The notes under the pieces are model-generated. The model did no database searches, was not told where the DNA came from, and saw only the letters and a list, made by a program, of their open reading frames with translations. A DNA stretch of 38,287 nt, from the UHGV virus genome UHGV-1369766, one strand, 5' to 3'. The DNA is from a virus. Of the stretch, positions 5,553-17,733 are shown in pieces; positions within the stretch are counted from its first letter, which is position 1, and each line of letters starts with the position of its first letter. Made by a program: the position numbers and the translations under genes.

Positions 5553-6521
5553 TTAGTAGGTTATTTTTGTTGCGAATACTTCGCCTTTTACGATGGCTGT
5601 TATGATATTTTTAGCAACATCTTCTGATGCGCCAACCTTGATAAGGTCAGCAAGTATTTTGTTATTTACTTCTTTCCGGTGAGCTTTATCCTTTGCTCTA
5701 CGCTCTTCTTCGTCCTTGATTCTTTTTTCTTCTGCTATTCTGGCTTGCTCTTTTACTTCAGCCTCGCGCCGGATTCGTTCAGCCTCCTCCTGTGCTTTTC
5801 GGCGTTCTGCTTCAATTGCCGCCTGCTTTTCTCTTTCAGCTCGTTCTGCTGCCTCTTTTGCTTCGCGCTGTGCTCGTTGCTCGGCTTCAATGCGTTCACG
5901 CTCTGCACGTTCCGCTGCGGCCTTAGCTTCTGCTTCTCGCCTTGCTGCTGCTTCAATTTCGGCTTTTGCCTTTGCTTCGGCTTCAGCTCTGGCTTTCTCT
6001 TCAGCTTCTCTTTTTAAGCGTTCTTCATGCTCTCGCTTTTCCTGCTCAGCTTTGAGTCTTGCCTCTTCTCTTTGGCGGTCAAATTCGCGATCCATCAAAA
6101 TCGCTATTTCATGGTCAGACTCAATTTGCTTTGCGAGAGCTTCAGCTGCTGCCTTAGCTTCTTCTTCGGCTTTAATCCGCGCCTGTTCTTCCTCATAATC
6201 AGTAAGAGGCTGGCGCGCCTTGGCTTTCAGTTCATCAAGGCGATCACGCACTGTCTTGCGGTTGGCATCAATTAGCTTTGGAATTTCCTTAAGTTCAGCA
6301 ACAAGGTCTTTGCCAAGACCATCGAGATATGTTTTCGTCTGCGCAACTTTATACGCCAGAGAAGCGATCTCCTTTCTGCCCTTTGCCGTTGTGATATCAG
6401 GCACAAAGGACATAACTTCACGTTCAACCTTTTGGAGAATTTCTTCAATCTGGTCGGCAGACTGAAATACAGTCATTGCATTTGCTTTTTCAATAACAAC
6501 TAAATCTGTTACTTCACTCAT
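5553..6521 (-). CDS. Hypothetical protein with long E/R/K/A-rich predicted single alpha-helix or coiled-coil segment
   Basis: 322 aa from the ATG at 6519-6521 (GGAGGAT RBS); ~110 aa of charged repeats (AEEKARAEAEAKAKAEIEAAARRE...); position analogous to the ea10/ral/sieB accessory segment of lambda. Confidence 0.65.
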   Translation of the reverse strand: MSEVTDLVVIEKANAMTVFQSADQIEEILQKVEREVMSFVPDITTAKGRKEIASLAYKVAQTKTYLDGLGKDLVAELKEIPKLIDANRKTVRDRLDELKAKARQPLTDYEEEQARIKAEEEAKAAAEALAKQIESDHEIAILMDREFDRQREEARLKAEQEKREHEERLKREAEEKARAEAEAKAKAEIEAAARREAEAKAAAERAERERIEAEQRAQREAKEAAERAEREKQAAIEAERRKAQEEAERIRREAEVKEQARIAEEKRIKDEEERRAKDKAHRKEVNNKILADLIKVGASEDVAKNIITAIVKGEVFATKITY

Positions 6522-6533
6522 ATATCCTCCATC

Positions 6534-6561
6534 AAAAAAAACTGCCCTCACACTGGAGGGC
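6534..6561 (-). terminator. Intrinsic terminator in the PL operon (tL1-like)
   Basis: Minus-strand GCCCTC-CAGTGT-GAGGGC hairpin followed by AG and eight T; sits between the 207-aa and 322-aa genes. Confidence 0.75.
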
Positions 6562-6695
6562 AAAGAAGATTTCCAATAATCAGAACAAGTCGGCTCCTGT
6601 TTAGTTACGAGCGACATTGCTCCGTGTATTCACTCGTTGGAATGAATACACAGTGCAGTGTTTATTCCGTTGTTTATGCCAAAAATAAAGGCCGA

Positions 6696-7319
6696 CTATG
6701 CGGACTCGGAAGGAAGTCCAATCATCTTATTCAAATCTTCTACCCGTAAAGCAGGAAGTGCTGTACTTGCTTTGTCTGCTTCTTTTGGTAGCAATTCTTT
6801 GCTTTCAGGCCAAACTTCAATAAGTCGCTTAACTGTTGTGACTGAGTTCAAAGCAGCCCATACATTTGATTCGATATCCTTTTTCTTGGTTTCAAGTTTT
6901 TGTTGCAATGCGCAGATTTCATCAAACCTTTTTGTTATTTCGTGTTCTGCATCAAACATGCATTTATCTTTGGTTGGAGTAGGGAGCAATATATCTTCGC
7001 CGTTGCCGTCTTTCCCATATGAATGCCATCCAACCCTTCTGCCAGATACAGTCAGATAAATTGAAGTAGAACGAACATCGTATGAGTAAAATGAACATCC
7101 CATCTTTTCAAGTTCTTCACTTATAGCTACTAACCTGGATGATAACTGATCCACTTCCTCAGTTTTCTTTTTACCGCCAAACGCAATAACTCTGGCGTCA
7201 AGTGCAAGCTGGTTCTTTAACTTTGTTACTTCTTCAAGTTCAGTGAAAACCCCAGACTTAATTAAAGCGTTACGAGCGATTTTCTCTTTCATTCTCGTAG
7301 TTAAGCGGATTGATGACAT
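6696..7319 (-). CDS. Hypothetical protein immediately downstream of N
   Basis: 207 aa from the ATG at 7317-7319 (GAGGA RBS); 11 nt after the N stop and upstream of the tL1-like terminator; no family recognised. Confidence 0.6.
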   Translation of the reverse strand: MSSIRLTTRMKEKIARNALIKSGVFTELEEVTKLKNQLALDARVIAFGGKKKTEEVDQLSSRLVAISEELEKMGCSFYSYDVRSTSIYLTVSGRRVGWHSYGKDGNGEDILLPTPTKDKCMFDAEHEITKRFDEICALQQKLETKKKDIESNVWAALNSVTTVKRLIEVWPESKELLPKEADKASTALPALRVEDLNKMIGLPSESA

Positions 7320-7330
7320 ATTAATTCCTC

Positions 7331-7630
7331 TCAAATAAGTGGTTTGCTGCCTAATTTTATTTTCTGGCGACCAACACAAGTCACACCCATTTCACTGCGT
7401 GGCTTGCGGTAGTAAATACGGTTCTGTTTACGCTCGACTTCTTCTGCCTTCTTGCAGCGAAGGCTTCCGAGTGATGCTGCTTTGTCTGCTCTGACGCAAC
7501 CAGAGAGCTTTAGCGCAATTTTTCGCGCCAGTCGCTGCTCTTGCATTGCCTGTTCACGTTGAGCCTGTCTGCGTGCTCTGCGGCGATTTCTGGCGTTATC
7601 GTCAGCCAGATATGTAATGACTACTGTCAT
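7331..7630 (-). CDS. N: Antitermination protein N
   Basis: 99 aa; arginine-rich motif NARNRRRARRQAQ near the N-terminus; C-terminus ...YYRKPRSEMGVTCVGRQKIKLGSKPLI resembles my recollection of lambda N (...YSKPGERGITCSGRQKIKGKSIPLI); GGAGG RBS. Confidence 0.85.
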   Translation of the reverse strand: MTVVITYLADDNARNRRRARRQAQREQAMQEQRLARKIALKLSGCVRADKAASLGSLRCKKAEEVERKQNRIYYRKPRSEMGVTCVGRQKIKLGSKPLI

Positions 7631-7942
7631 GTTGACCTCCGATGAAACAACTTTGGAATTTTTTTATTACAAAGTTGTTTCCTTCCCCGCCAATTAGACG
7701 GGGATGGAAGAGCATTTATGAGCCTTCATGGACTCTGCTCGATCAGTTCTATTTAATTAATCTCTCAATTGAATGTAAGTATTCACATAAATCCTCCTAC
7801 CTCTTGTGCAGCTTTCTTGAATATGGTGGCGGCTGCATAACGCCTATGGAATTGACTTTGGCGGTGACGCGCCGGGTGCTTATCTTCCGGTTGCCGTCGT
7901 GCAGCTGCACTTCACGTCACCCCAAAGCCAACTACTCTTTGG

Positions 7943-8030: not shown

Positions 8031-8059
8031 AGAATACTGTAGGTATTTTATTGTGTAAA
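8031..8059 (-). promoter_or_regulatory. PL-like early leftward promoter (-35 TTTACA, 17-bp spacer, -10 TATTCT)
   Basis: Read on the minus strand; both hexamers overlap operator repeats; same -10 hexamer and geometry as the PR candidate. Confidence 0.5.
8033..8047. promoter_or_regulatory. OL operator site (AATAC-TGTAG-GTATT)
   Basis: Perfect inverted half-sites with 5-bp spacer; one of six related sites. Confidence 0.6.
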
Positions 8060-8072
8060 TACCCAAGGTATT
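8058..8072. promoter_or_regulatory. OL operator site (AATAC-CCAAG-GTATT)
   Basis: Perfect inverted half-sites, 25 bp centre-to-centre from the neighbouring site. Confidence 0.6.
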
Positions 8073-8102
8073 TATTTTTGATGAAATAATGATAAGCAAA
8101 TG

Positions 8103-8117
8103 AATACAAAGGATATT
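8103..8117. promoter_or_regulatory. OL operator-like site (AATAC-AAAGG-ATATT, one mismatch)
   Basis: Imperfect copy of the same motif. Confidence 0.4.
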
Positions 8118-8203
8118 TATTTTTTCGGTGTCTGCTTGTTCAGTGCTTTTTATGCGGGATATGTGAAGTGGATCCCGATAGCTATTGCTGCCGGGATTAT
8201 AGG

Positions 8204-8572
8204 TTAGTCAGCGAAGGTTAAGACGAGAATTACCTTAATGATGTCTGCTACAACAGACACGGCCATAGATAAACCAAAGACGATCCAAGCCACAGTGATG
8301 TCTTCACTACCATCGTATAGAGTTCCGTAATCACTGGTGTAAGGCGTAAATGTCGCGCCTTGATACAATAGGTATAAGCTTGATCCATAGAGGATAAATG
8401 CAGATATCCCTTGTATTGCTATGATCACCAGAATCATGAAACGAGCTGATCTATGCGCCCAAGCCTGGCTTATTTTTTCTGATAGAGATTTCGCAATAAA
8501 AGCATGCGCTAAGCCGTAAATTGTCGAGATTGCCAACATCCCAAAAAAGCTTGCTATAGCGGTTCCAACCAT
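8204..8572 (-). CDS. Small three-helix membrane protein downstream of cI (rex-position gene)
   Basis: 122 aa from the ATG at 8570-8572 (AAGGGG RBS, 17 nt after the cI stop); three hydrophobic segments; same strand and operon position as rexAB in lambda. Confidence 0.6.
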   Translation of the reverse strand: MVGTAIASFFGMLAISTIYGLAHAFIAKSLSEKISQAWAHRSARFMILVIIAIQGISAFILYGSSLYLLYQGATFTPYTSDYGTLYDGSEDITVAWIVFGLSMAVSVVADIIKVILVLTFAD

Positions 8573-8589
8573 AATCGCCCCTTGCGTGA

Positions 8590-9306
8590 TCAAACCAGCC
8601 TTAGTTTTGTCTCAATTGCAACGCCTATAATCTTGCAGTTTCCATTGATTGGCACGAGAGGCCATGCAGGATTAAGTCCCTTGAGGTATTTATTTCCGCC
8701 GTCGATTATCAGCTTCTTGAATGTTGCTTCGTTAGAGTCAGAAAGTTTTGCTATGACCAAGCTGCCGTTGATCGCCTCCCTTCCGGTATCGAAAAGAACG
8801 AATGTTCCCTCTGGAATGCTTAACCCAACCGGTGCCGTCATTGAATCACCTTCCACTTTAAGCCAGAACGCATTACCTTGAATATGCGCGTCAGACTCAA
8901 GCCAAACATCTATGTCTTTAATGGTGTATGGTTCGCATGCTTCACACCACGAGCCAGCCTGGATACTGCTTAACACCGGATACCTCTTTCCTGCTCTGTA
9001 TTCCCCTGCATACCTTACGTTGGCATCGCTCTTAAGGCTTTCTGCCTGTTCTGCAACCTTGGCAGCAATTGACTGGCTAAAATCAGCAATTGAGACTTGC
9101 AACAGTCGTGCAAAACCAGATGCAACCTCAACGTTTAGCGCGTTTCTGCCATTAAGATAATGCCCTACCGCTCCTTGGGTGATACCCAGTTCATCAGCGA
9201 TTGAGTATTGGGTTATTCCCAATTCTTTCTTTTTTGACTCATACAAAGCCTTAAGCCGCTTAGCGTCTTCGAGCTGTTCTGTCGTCAGTGATTTTTTATT
9301 TTCCAT
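8590..9306 (-). CDS. cI: CI-type prophage repressor (HTH plus LexA-like S24 peptidase domain)
   Basis: 238 aa; N-terminal HTH (QYSIADELGITQGAVGHYLNG), C-terminal autocleavage-type domain (...VEGDSM...KL...); divergent to cro across an operator-rich intergenic region. Confidence 0.9.
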   Translation of the reverse strand: MENKKSLTTEQLEDAKRLKALYESKKKELGITQYSIADELGITQGAVGHYLNGRNALNVEVASGFARLLQVSIADFSQSIAAKVAEQAESLKSDANVRYAGEYRAGKRYPVLSSIQAGSWCEACEPYTIKDIDVWLESDAHIQGNAFWLKVEGDSMTAPVGLSIPEGTFVLFDTGREAINGSLVIAKLSDSNEATFKKLIIDGGNKYLKGLNPAWPLVPINGNCKIIGVAIETKLRLV

Positions 9307-9317
9307 AGCTTAATTCT

Positions 9318-9332
9318 AATAGCTAAGGTACT
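9318..9332. promoter_or_regulatory. OR3-like operator (AATAG-CTAAG-GTACT, degenerate)
   Basis: Weaker copy, 24 bp from the next site, nearest cI. Confidence 0.35.
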
Positions 9333-9341
9333 TAAACTAAA

Positions 9342-9356
9342 AATACCCTGAGTATT
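9342..9356. promoter_or_regulatory. OR2-like operator (AATAC-CCTGA-GTATT)
   Basis: Perfect half-sites; overlaps the -35 of the PR candidate. Confidence 0.6.
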
Positions 9357-9383
9357 GATTGCTTTGAATACCTGTAGTATTCT
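9355..9383 (+). promoter_or_regulatory. PR-like early rightward promoter (-35 TTGATT, 17-bp spacer, -10 TATTCT)
   Basis: Hexamers overlap the OR2 and OR1 sites; ~30 nt upstream of cro. Confidence 0.5.
9367..9381. promoter_or_regulatory. OR1-like operator (GAATAC-CTGTA-GTATTC)
   Basis: Perfect 17-bp palindrome including flanks; overlaps the -10 of the PR candidate. Confidence 0.65.
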
Positions 9384-9658: not shown

Positions 9659-9715
9659 TACAACGCGCATAAGTTGATGCGCATAACTTCTTATTAGTTA
9701 AGGAAATACTTACAT

Positions 9716-9994
9716 ATGCAACTTACAAGTACTCGCAAGAAAGCGAATGCAATTACAAGCAACATCCTGAATCGAATTGCTGTACGTGGTCAGCGAAAGG
9801 TTGCCGACGCGTTAGGGATTAATGAATCGCAAATTTCGCGATGGAAAGACAGCTTCATCCCAAAAATGGGAATGCTTCTGGCTGTTCTTGAATGGGGTGT
9901 TGAAGACGAGGAGTTGGCGGAACTGGCTAAGAAAGTAGCCAGAATGCTGACAAAAGAAAAAGCCCCGAAGAACGGCGAATTCTTCGAGGCCTGA
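9716..9994 (+). CDS. cII: CII transcriptional activator
   Basis: ...SQISRWK...IPKMGMLLAVLEWGV... matches the conserved lambda CII core as recalled; AAGGAA RBS. Confidence 0.85.
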   Translation: MQLTSTRKKANAITSNILNRIAVRGQRKVADALGINESQISRWKDSFIPKMGMLLAVLEWGVEDEELAELAKKVARMLTKEKAPKNGEFFEA

Positions 9995-17409: not shown

Positions 17410-17733
17410 ATGAAGATGCCTGAAAAACATGACCTGTTAGCCGCCATTCTCGCGGCAAAGGAACAAGGCATCGGGGCAATCCTTGCGTTTGCAATGGCGT
17501 ACCTTCGCGGCAGATATAATGGCGGTGCGTTTACAAAAACACTAATCGACGCAACGATGTGCGCCATTATCGCCTGGTTCATTCGTGACCTTCTCGACTT
17601 CGCCGGACTAAGTAGCAATCTCGCTTATATAACGAGCGTGTTCATCGGCTACATCGGTACTGACTCGATTGGTTCGCTTATCAAACGCTTCGCTGCTAAA
17701 AAAGCCGGAGTAGAAGATGGTGGAAATCAATAA
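17410..17733 (+). CDS. S: Holin (lambda S type, dual-start motif MKMPEKH)
   Basis: 107 aa, near-identical to lambda S as recalled; Met-Lys-Met dual start typical of the S107/S105 holin/antiholin pair. Confidence 0.9.

What the first reader, a model, noticed from the sequence alone, without database searches (positions are those of the whole stretch)
8204..8572. Three-helix membrane protein co-transcribed with cI in the rex position
A 122-aa protein with three hydrophobic helices starts 17 nt after the cI stop and ends just before the OL operators, the exact slot lambda uses for rexAB. Genes here are expressed in the lysogen from the repressor promoter and are classically superinfection-exclusion or abortive-infection factors. 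I recognise no family, and a single small membrane protein would be a minimal, possibly undescribed, exclusion module.
Basis: partly seen in the sequence, partly recalled or inferred. Interest (0 to 1): 0.62.

Follow-up and report, generated by a model that had tools for sequence, protein, structure and literature searches.

The report
Orphan membrane protein fused to cI operon
A small three-helix inner-membrane protein of unknown function (already catalogued as hkaS of phage HK620) sits 17 bases after the prophage repressor gene; it is probably a phage-exclusion factor, but unlike other genes in this slot it is never swapped out.

Summary
On the minus strand, 8204-8572 encodes a 122-aa protein. 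Its ATG lies 17 nt after the cI stop, behind an AAGGGG ribosome-binding site. It has three hydrophobic helices.

It is not undescribed as an ORF. It is hkaS ("unknown") of phage HK620 and PHROG 6534. No Pfam, NCBIfam, PADLOC, PDB or fold relative exists, and a profile search of 1.84 billion proteins finds only this family.

The gene is real: five lineages at 51-83% identity keep the length and start codon, and dN/dS is about 0.14.

It is always 17-20 nt after an HK620-type cI. In complete E. coli genomes, 146 of 5426 carry it and 146 carry that cI.

Sister repressor clades carry at least 22 different genes in the same slot, including BstA and HEC-04. One clade with at least 98% identical cI has nine kinds. 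The slot is therefore a defence hotspot, but hkaS is an unusually stable tenant.

Charges predict N-out/C-in topology. The cytoplasmic face is conserved and the periplasmic face is variable.

Most likely it is a lysogen-expressed inner-membrane exclusion factor acting alone (about 0.4). A role coupled to the cI switch is the main rival. The function is untested.

The parts
8204..8572 (-). hkaS coding sequence, 122 aa. Predicted three-helix inner-membrane protein: TM1 about residues 1-27, cytoplasmic amphipathic loop 28-44, TM2 45-70, periplasmic acidic/aromatic loop 71-92, TM3 93-122.
   Evidence: ORF, hydropathy; PHROG 6534, E 2.4e-79, full length; HK620 hkaS, AAK28867.1 'unknown'; AF2 pLDDT 92; purifying selection, conservation, charge bias
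8578..8583 (-). Shine-Dalgarno AAGGGG, 5 nt upstream of the hkaS ATG, inside the 17-nt cI-hkaS spacer (8573-8589)
   Evidence: All divergent loci also have AAGGA/AAGGAC in a 17-20 nt spacer.
8590..9306 (-). cI repressor (238 aa, HTH_3 + Peptidase_S24), first cistron of the presumed cI-hkaS operon
8172..8197 (-). Hairpin 6 nt after the hkaS stop codon (AUCCCGGCAGCAAUAGCUAUCGGGAU on the transcript), with no U tract. Possible 3'-end or stabilising structure.
   Evidence: fold. The Hafnia-type loci keep the stem with changes in the loop. By my reading of the downstream sequences printed, which were not folded, unrelated hairpin-forming sequences follow hkaS in the Salmonella and L007 lineages.
8031..8115 (-). 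PL promoter (-35 TTTACA at 8059, -10 ending 8031) and the OL operators of consensus AATAC-N7-GTATT: OL1 8032-8048, OL2 8057-8073, and a third operator-like site at 8099-8115
   Evidence: The operator-like sites are conserved in L003, L007 and L008.
9313..9382 (.). OR3-OR2-OR1 (9317-9333, 9341-9357, 9366-9382) with PR. A PRM -10-like TAGAAT (9313-9318, minus strand) lies 6 nt before the cI ATG, so cI mRNA from PRM is probably leaderless while hkaS has its own SD (inference).
   Evidence: HK620 annotation mapped with offset +4644; sequence read directly
9700..9739 (-). PRE (cII-activated establishment promoter), mapped from the HK620 annotation. It would also transcribe cI-hkaS during establishment of lysogeny.
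   Evidence: (annotation of AF335538), offset checked on cI, cro and cII

Best explanation
This is hkaS, a real gene for a 122-residue protein with three transmembrane helices, inserted in the inner membrane with the N-terminus in the periplasm and the C-terminus in the cytoplasm. It is the second cistron of the repressor operon of the HK620-type immunity module. It is made from PRM in lysogens and from PRE during establishment, and translated from its own ribosome-binding site. The most likely role is a stand-alone, prophage-expressed exclusion factor acting at the inner membrane against superinfecting phages. The most probable mechanism is interference with genome entry or with membrane steps of infection, as SieA, Imm and HK97 gp15 do. 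It has no sensor partner of the RexA kind. Shown: the gene, its conservation, its linkage and its predicted fold. Inferred: co-transcription, topology, and the whole of the function.
For: Real gene under purifying selection: five lineages at 51-83% identity keep 121-122 aa and the same start, and dN/dS is 0.135-0.15 where dS is unsaturated. Operon structure: a 17-20 nt spacer with an SD in every locus, and no promoter- or terminator-like site between cI and hkaS. Membrane protein: three hydrophobic segments and an AF2 three-helix model at pLDDT 92. Topology: loop 1 has net charge +3 to +6 and loop 2 has -1 to -4 in all lineages. Position: the same slot holds rexAB in lambda. In 62 loci with cI 62-76% identical it holds BstA (E 1.5e-105), a KilA-N/BstA-like protein, HEC-04 (E 2e-52), PDC-M53A, an NYN protein and several small membrane or secreted proteins. 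The literature calls this interval a hotspot expressed with the repressor (PMC8585504). No conserved partner: only cro, cI and the operators are shared around hkaS, while N, replication and recombination genes differ. hkaS evolves about 4 times faster than cI at non-synonymous sites, and the variation is concentrated on the periplasmic side (37-44% against 66-75% identity), as expected if that face meets changing phage components. This window has no sieA, sieB, gtrA, rexA or rexB homologue.
Against: There is no phenotype anywhere. No paper mentions a function and every database name is 'hypothetical'. There is no similarity in sequence or fold to RexB, SieA, GtrA, a holin or any PADLOC, Pfam or PDB entry. 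The argument is therefore by position and architecture only. hkaS is not swapped like the defence cargo of sister clades, which fits a role tied to cI at least as well. It travels with very different virion types: podovirus HK620, siphoviruses HK140 and HK630, and Stx2c phages. An entry block would therefore not be tuned to its own kind of virion. Overall dN/dS is well below 1, so an arms race is not demonstrated.
Confidence: 0.4

Rival explanations
1. HkaS is an integral accessory of the cI/Cro switch rather than a defence gene. It would be a membrane-anchored protein whose conserved cytoplasmic face binds a switch or proteolysis component (cI, Cro, CII, FtsH or Clp). It would tune establishment, maintenance or induction, in the way RexA and RexB are reported to assist lambda's transition from lysogeny to lytic growth.
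For: Linkage to HK620-type cI is strict 1:1: 146 genomes and 147 places for each gene in 5426 complete E. coli genomes. Every genome listed in both outputs shows a 17-19 nt gap between the two genes. hkaS is retained across cI divergence with saturated synonymous sites in Escherichia, Salmonella, Enterobacter and Hafnia. A sister clade with at least 98% identical cI shows 9 kinds of downstream gene in 10 loci. The hkaS spacer is 17-20 nt, against 49-198 nt for nearly all the larger cargo genes. The most conserved parts are the cytoplasmic amphipathic loop (KIxQxWxHxxARF) and the cytoplasmic end of TM3 (DIxKxI..LTFAD). A precedent for switch effects of genes in this slot is bioRxiv 10.1101/2021.04.19.439022 and PMC11077077.
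Against: There is no known example of a polytopic membrane protein acting on a lambdoid switch. hkaS changes about 4 times faster than cI at the protein level, which is not expected of a tightly co-adapted partner. Stable linkage may simply reflect the absence of any recombination joint in a 17-nt spacer. Most lambdoid immunity modules, such as P22's, work with nothing in this slot.
Confidence: 0.2
2. HkaS is a host-fitness (lysogenic conversion) membrane protein unrelated to phage competition. For example, it could be a small regulator of a host transporter, sensor kinase or envelope-stress pathway that benefits the lysogen.
For: It is a small polytopic inner-membrane protein expressed constitutively with the repressor. 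It is intact in all 146 E. coli genomes at 80% coverage or more, from many hosts and sources. Its conserved cytoplasmic face could dock on a conserved host protein. No defence-family signal was found.
Against: The known occupants of this slot are anti-phage systems. The family is confined to one immunity type and absent from 185,579 species-representative genomes and from plasmids. A generally useful host function would be expected to spread more widely.
Confidence: 0.15
3. HkaS is a RexB-like abortive-infection effector: a latent channel that depolarises the cell when triggered by an infecting phage, without a separate RexA-type sensor.
For: It has the same slot and orientation as rexB relative to cI and OL. 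It is a multi-pass membrane protein with invariant polar or charged residues inside the helices (Q54, S106, D110, K113) that could line a pore in an oligomer.
Against: hhalign probability against RexB is 0.7%. It has three helices rather than the four reported for RexB (number from my own knowledge). No rexA homologue is in the window and no conserved neighbour could act as a sensor. An unregulated pore made with the repressor would be toxic.
Confidence: 0.1
4. The ORF is not a functional gene: a chance or decaying reading frame in the cI 3' region.
For: A few frameshifted N-terminal variants exist (P0006, P0007 and P0009; HF4s; one 368-nt copy).
Against: dN/dS is 0.135-0.2. Length and start are conserved in five lineages with nucleotide identity down to 54-57% between lineages. 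35 columns are invariant. A conserved SD is present. The exact window protein occurs on at least 1000 contigs.
Confidence: 0.02

Closest known systems
Phage lambda rexA-rexB (RexB membrane component)
   Same: The position is the same: downstream of cI, same strand, before OL/PL, and expressed with the repressor in lysogens (PMC8585504). RexB is also a small polytopic inner-membrane protein.
   Different: There is no sequence relationship (hhalign probability 0.7%). HkaS has three helices and 122 aa, against 144 aa for RexB (length) and the four helices reported for it (my knowledge). There is no RexA-like partner in the window or in any related locus. The spacer after cI is 17 nt, against about 110 nt between cI and rexA in lambda.
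BstA (Salmonella prophage BTP1 abortive-infection protein)
   Same: BstA is also encoded directly downstream of the prophage repressor and is highly expressed in lysogeny (PMC8585504). BstA itself occupies this very slot next to repressors 64-74% identical to the window's cI (L046 and L086).
   Different: BstA is a roughly 300-aa protein that localises to sites of phage DNA replication (PMC8585504) and has a KilA-N-type region. HkaS is a 122-aa membrane protein with no PADLOC hit. BstA is swappable cargo about 65 nt after cI, whereas hkaS is fixed at 17-20 nt.
P22 SieA; T4 Imm and HK97 gp15 (inner-membrane superinfection-exclusion proteins that block DNA entry)
   Same: All are small prophage- or phage-encoded inner-membrane proteins that act alone (SieA: PMC10461980; Imm and gp15: my own knowledge). 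This is the mechanism I consider most likely for HkaS.
   Different: There is no similarity to SieA (hhalign probability 0.3%) and no Pfam or PHROG exclusion family is hit. sieA has its own promoter near the tailspike region, not the repressor operon. No phenotype is known for HkaS.
Class I holins (lambda S105, P22 gp13)
   Same: They share about 105-122 aa and three transmembrane helices. The predicted N-out/C-in topology also matches (holin topology from my own knowledge).
   Different: There is no similarity to the window's own P22-type holin at 17413-17730 (hhalign probability 0.1%). HkaS has no charged C-terminal tail, lies in the repressor operon rather than the lysis cassette, and is expressed in lysogens.

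Membership tests
HkaS family (PHROG 6534; HK620 AAK28867.1) | Full-length sequence match to the family profile | tested here: met
   phrog_6534 E 2.4e-79, residues 1-122 on profile positions 1-122 of 122; 99.2% identical to HK620 hkaS
HkaS family (PHROG 6534; HK620 AAK28867.1) | Located 17-20 nt downstream of an HK620-type cI, same strand, upstream of OL/PL and N | tested here: met
   Window; HK620 and HK140; 8 loci from Salmonella, Hafnia-type and metagenomes; 18 IMG/VR loci; 146 against 146 E. coli genomes
Lambda RexB | Sequence or profile similarity to RexB | tested here: not met
   hhalign probability 0.7%; no Pfam hit
Lambda RexB | Adjacent RexA sensor partner (two-gene system) | tested here: not met
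   tblastn with RexA finds nothing in the window. No conserved neighbour other than cI and cro in related loci.
Lambda RexB | Encoded between cI and OL and transcribed with cI | tested here: inconclusive
   The position requirement is met. Co-transcription is inferred from the absence of promoter or terminator signals, not measured.
Lambda RexB | Infection-triggered membrane depolarisation | not testable with these tools
   Needs membrane-potential measurements in infected cells
P22 SieA-type exclusion proteins | Sequence or profile similarity | tested here: not met
   hhalign probability 0.3%; no sieA homologue in the window
P22 SieA-type exclusion proteins | Blocks DNA delivery of superinfecting phage without affecting adsorption | not testable with these tools
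   Requires plating, adsorption and DNA-entry assays
BstA | Match to the BstA model / KilA-N-like domain | tested here: not met
   No PADLOC family at E up to 10, whereas true BstA in the same slot scores E 1.5e-105
GtrA-type small O-antigen conversion flippases (about 120 aa) | Similarity to GtrA; adjacent gtrB/gtrC | tested here: not met
   hhalign probability 1.4%; no gtr homologue in the window
Class I holins | Similarity to a holin family; location in the lysis cassette next to the endolysin | tested here: not met
   hhalign probability 0.1% against the window's holin. The gene lies in the immunity region.
Any described anti-phage defence protein (PADLOC 2.0), Pfam-A, NCBIfam, PDB | Significant profile or fold match | tested here: not met
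   sequence; fold: only generic helix bundles; Foldseek E at least 0.37

The most novel reading that the evidence does not exclude
HkaS is not interchangeable defence cargo. It would be a third, fixed component of the HK620-type immunity module: a membrane-embedded protein that couples the cI/Cro switch to the state of the cell envelope or to membrane-bound proteolysis, so that the decision to stay lysogenic or to induce is read partly at the membrane. The stable 1:1 linkage with cI, against rapid cargo turnover in sister clades, and the conserved cytoplasmic face are compatible with this.
Probability: 0.12. Interest if true: 0.75.

Novelty: new variant of a known kind. Interest (0 to 1): 0.4.

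Why it matters
The interval after the prophage repressor is one of the most strongly expressed places in a lysogen, and it has already yielded rexAB and BstA. HkaS is an uncharacterised orphan family in that interval. It is present in about 2.7% of complete E. coli genomes, including Stx2c-converting phages, and also in Salmonella, Enterobacter and Hafnia. If it excludes phages by itself, it would be one of the smallest known prophage exclusion modules, and relevant to phage therapy and phage typing of these hosts. Its unusual stability next to cI, where neighbouring repressor clades exchange cargo freely, also offers a clean comparison: what makes one tenant of a defence hotspot permanent? 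A cheap experiment (clone, express, challenge) would settle the main question.

Tried and rejected
- **Family searches.** Pfam, NCBIfam and PADLOC gave nothing significant. The best hit was Cation_ATPase_C at E 0.0035, below its cut-off, which I put down to membrane-helix composition.
- **Homologue searches.** The word-indexed search found 12 clusters, all the same family. The exhaustive profile search of 1.84 billion representatives found one cluster plus a 44-aa fragment. There was no copy on plasmids and none in GTDB species-representative genomes.
- **Direct profile comparisons.** RexB, SieA, GtrA and the window's holin all scored below 2% probability. A PDB sequence profile search gave no hit.
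- **TM1 as a cleavable signal peptide (AHA-F).** Rejected. There is no positive n-region, the AxA motif is absent in three of the five lineages (Salmonella-type, L030, P0012), and loop 1 is strongly positive.
- **TTG start (129 aa).** Rejected because it is not conserved.
- **The 35-aa hydrophobic ORF on the opposite strand (8100-8207) as a partner or type I toxin.** Judged probably non-coding.
- **svsR sRNA (PMC12803456).** Read and set aside. It is described for another prophage, at the 3' end of that prophage's cI, and was not searched for here.
- **Literature.** There is no paper on hkaS function. The 2001 HK620 genome paper is not held.

Full report
**What is there**

The finding's coordinates hold a minus-strand ORF from ATG 8572 to the stop at 8204, encoding 122 aa.
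- The gene upstream on the same strand, 8590-9306, is a cI-type repressor with HTH_3 and Peptidase_S24 domains.
- Seventeen nucleotides separate the two genes. They contain an AAGGGG ribosome-binding site 5 nt before the ATG.
- Downstream lie a hairpin (8172-8197), then operator-like sites of consensus AATAC-N7-GTATT at 8099-8115, 8057-8073 and 8032-8048, overlapping PL (8059-8031), then the N leader and an N-type antiterminator at 7331-7630.
- A simple scan finds no promoter-like or terminator-like site on the minus strand between cI and the ORF, or inside it.
- Hydropathy shows three segments above 1.6. AlphaFold2 on a seven-sequence alignment gives helices 2-29, 31-38, 41-73 and 89-121 plus a short hairpin in the second loop, with mean pLDDT 92.

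The strand needs adding, and 'just before OL' means about 90 nt.

**It is a known ORF of unknown function**

The immunity region of the window is 96-99% identical to HK620, HK630, HK140, mEpX2, HZ41, two EHEC phages and two Stx2c-converting phages. The window as a whole is a different mosaic: the best matches cover only about 50%.
- In the HK620 record the ORF is hkaS, product 'unknown'. The depositors placed a terminator of the cI transcript (tIMM) after it.
- It is PHROG 6534, unknown function, matched end to end (E 2.4e-79).
- Every database name retrieved is 'hypothetical' or 'uncharacterized'.
- No held paper discusses it, and the HK620 genome paper is not held.

**It is an orphan**

- No Pfam, NCBIfam or PADLOC family matches.
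- The word-indexed search of 5.8 billion proteins returns 12 clusters, all the same family.
- A profile search that read all 1.84 billion 50%-identity representatives returns one cluster and one fragment.
- Nothing was found on plasmids or in one genome for each of 185,579 species.
- The PDB sequence profile search is empty.
- Fold searches give only generic helix bundles.
- Direct profile comparisons with lambda RexB, P22 SieA, P22 GtrA and the window's own P22-type holin give probabilities of 0.1-1.4%.

**It is a real gene**

Five lineages share 121-122 aa, the same start and 35 invariant positions at 51-83% identity to the window protein. They are the E. coli type, a Hafnia type, a Salmonella/Enterobacter type, L030 and P0012.

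| Comparison | hkaS | cI |
|---|---|---|
| dN against the Hafnia-type copy | 0.093 | 0.022 |
| dS against the Hafnia-type copy | 0.69 | 0.74 |
| dN/dS | 0.135 | 0.030 |

- Selection is therefore purifying, but the protein changes about four times faster than the repressor next to it.
- Across genera, cI stays 86-96% identical while HkaS falls to 52-83%.
- Within E. coli, cI is at least 99% identical in 143 of 146 genomes but hkaS in only 66.
- GC content is only slightly below that of its neighbours.

**Linkage**

In eight loci holding divergent homologues, the gene is always 17-20 nt after a cI (HTH_3 + S24) and before an N gene. The N type, replication genes and recombination genes differ between loci.
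- In 5426 complete E. coli genomes, hkaS is in 146 (147 places) and the HK620-type cI is in 146 (147 places).
- Every genome that appears in both listings shows the two genes 17-19 nt apart.

**The slot, surveyed**

I fetched 80 viral contigs with repressors related to the window's cI and read what follows each repressor.
- All 17 with identical cI, and L030 with cI at 87% identity, carry hkaS.
- Of the 62 loci with cI at 62-76% identity, none carries it. Thirty-three have an ORF of at least 90 aa starting within 200 nt, falling into 22 kinds.
- These include BstA (PADLOC E 1.5e-105), a KilA-N/BstA-like protein, an HEC-04 AAA ATPase (E 2e-52), PDC-M53A, an NYN-domain protein, a ParA-like ATPase and a DUF7946/7947 protein. 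There are also several small membrane or secreted proteins.
- This agrees with the literature. The cI-to-N interval is described as a mosaic hotspot harbouring rexAB and bstA and sharing the strong repressor promoter (PMC8585504).

**hkaS is an atypical tenant**

- One sister clade of ten loci with at least 98% identical cI carries nine different kinds of downstream gene. There, cargo turns over far faster than the repressor diverges.
- In the HK620-type clade the opposite holds: synonymous sites are saturated between lineages, yet hkaS is always present.
- Nearly all the larger cargo genes start 49-198 nt after cI. hkaS starts at 17-20 nt.

Either the short spacer leaves no joint at which recombination could exchange it, or the protein is functionally tied to this immunity module.

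**Anatomy of the protein**

- Loop 1 (residues 24-44) has net charge +3 to +6 in every lineage and loop 2 (71-92) has -1 to -4. By the positive-inside rule this gives N-out/C-in topology.
- Between lineage representatives, the cytoplasmic loop and the cytoplasmic half of TM3 are the most conserved (66% and 75% mean identity).
- The distal periplasmic loop and the periplasmic half of TM3 are the least conserved (37% and 44%).
- Conserved motifs are KIxQxWxHxxARFxIL, YxLYxxxT and DIxKxI..LTFAD.
- Invariant polar residues inside the helices are Q54, S106, D110 and K113. TM1 carries a stripe of small residues (A5, S8, S16) typical of tight helix packing.
- I could not model oligomers or complexes.

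**Interpretation**

I commit to a lysogen-expressed, stand-alone inner-membrane exclusion factor, most probably interfering with genome entry or another membrane step of superinfection (confidence about 0.4).
- The grounds are position, operon structure, membrane location, absence of any partner gene, faster evolution on the periplasmic side, and the absence of other recognisable exclusion genes in this window.
- None of this is a functional test.
- The main rival (about 0.2) is a role tied to the cI switch. It is suggested by the stable linkage and the conserved cytoplasmic face, and has a loose precedent in the reported effects of RexA and RexB on lambda's transition to lytic growth.
- A host-fitness role (about 0.15) and a RexB-like triggered channel without a sensor (about 0.1) remain possible.
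- A non-functional ORF is effectively excluded.

**Verdict**

The gene has been catalogued since the 2001 HK620 genome paper, but it is functionally blank and an orphan in sequence and fold. It is best described as a new variant of a known kind: a repressor-operon accessory gene in the rex/bstA slot. It is distinguished by being a single small membrane protein that is fixed rather than exchangeable. Interest is moderate (0.4). A specialist would not be surprised by its presence, but the family is common enough, and the deciding experiment simple enough, to be worth doing.

Noticed in passing
window 8100-8207 (+ strand): A 35-aa hydrophobic ORF (MNTKDIYFFGVCLFSAFYAGYVKWIPIAIAAGIIG) runs convergent with hkaS and overlaps its stop codon. 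Its ATG lies inside the third operator-like site and has no SD. It is intact in 18 of 19 E. coli-type loci, but every variant seen is non-synonymous (including A16D). The Hafnia-type loci differ in the N-terminal half and in length. By my reading of the Salmonella and L007 downstream sequences the region is not homologous there. The conserved part coincides with the hairpin at 8172-8197. It is probably non-coding.
   Followed up: partly
window 8079-8122: HK620's annotated OL3 maps to 8079-8095 (TGATGAAATAATGATAA), which does not fit the AATAC-N7-GTATT consensus of the other operators. A better third site, GAATACAAAGGATATTT at 8099-8115, lies inside the stretch annotated as terminator tIMM and is conserved in the Salmonella, L007 and Hafnia-type loci. 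tIMM as annotated has no convincing hairpin plus U tract.
   Followed up: partly
window about 7646-7852 (N leader, minus-strand transcript): About 200 nt lie between nutL and the N start that HK620 lacks and HK140 has in a diverged form. The stretch contains a perfect 12-bp inverted repeat (7644-7655 / 7670-7681, GAAACAACTTTG...CAAAGTTGTTTC) ending 4 nt before the N Shine-Dalgarno, and a second hairpin CCCCG-N9-CGGGG at 7685-7703. The position recalls the RNase III-sensitive N-leader hairpin of lambda (my own knowledge, not tested).
   Followed up: no
L046, L086, L042, L085, L069, L059, L043, L040 (IMG/VR loci, gene directly after the cI relative): Repressors 62-76% identical to the window's cI are followed by BstA, a KilA-N/BstA-like protein, an HEC-04 AAA ATPase, PDC-M53A, an NYN protein, a ParA-like ATPase and a DUF7946/7947 protein. 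There are 22 kinds in 33 loci, and 9 kinds among 10 loci whose cI is at least 98% identical. Several kinds have no hit at all and could be unexplored defence candidates, for example the 342-aa, 263-aa and 141-aa proteins of L036, L045 and L060.
   Followed up: partly
window 9304-9318 (minus strand): A -10-like TAGAAT (9313-9318) ends 6 nt before the cI ATG, and no SD is visible. The PRM transcript is therefore probably leaderless for cI, as in lambda, whereas hkaS has a strong SD. HkaS could then be translated at least as well as cI in lysogens. This is read from the sequence only.
   Followed up: no
whole window: tblastn finds a P22-type holin at 17413-17730 (91% identical to P22 gp13) but no homologue of P22 sieA, sieB, gtrA or gene 17, nor of lambda rexA or rexB. 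The region left of N (for example the 227-aa ORF at 6696-7379 and the 354-aa Glu/Ala/Lys-rich ORF at 5553-6617) differs from HK620's hkaP/hkaQ. The window is a mosaic whose best matches (HZ41, IME10, mEpX2) cover only about half of its first 25 kb.
   Followed up: no
hkaS residues 92-94 (window 8291-8299) and scattered TM positions: Two common alleles occur within E. coli at the periplasmic boundary of TM3, DITVAW (this window) and DISMAW (HK620 and many others). F10L, G11A, I26L, V49A/I51M and S64L variants also occur. Rare N-terminal frameshift variants exist (P0006, P0007, P0009; HF4s).
   Followed up: no
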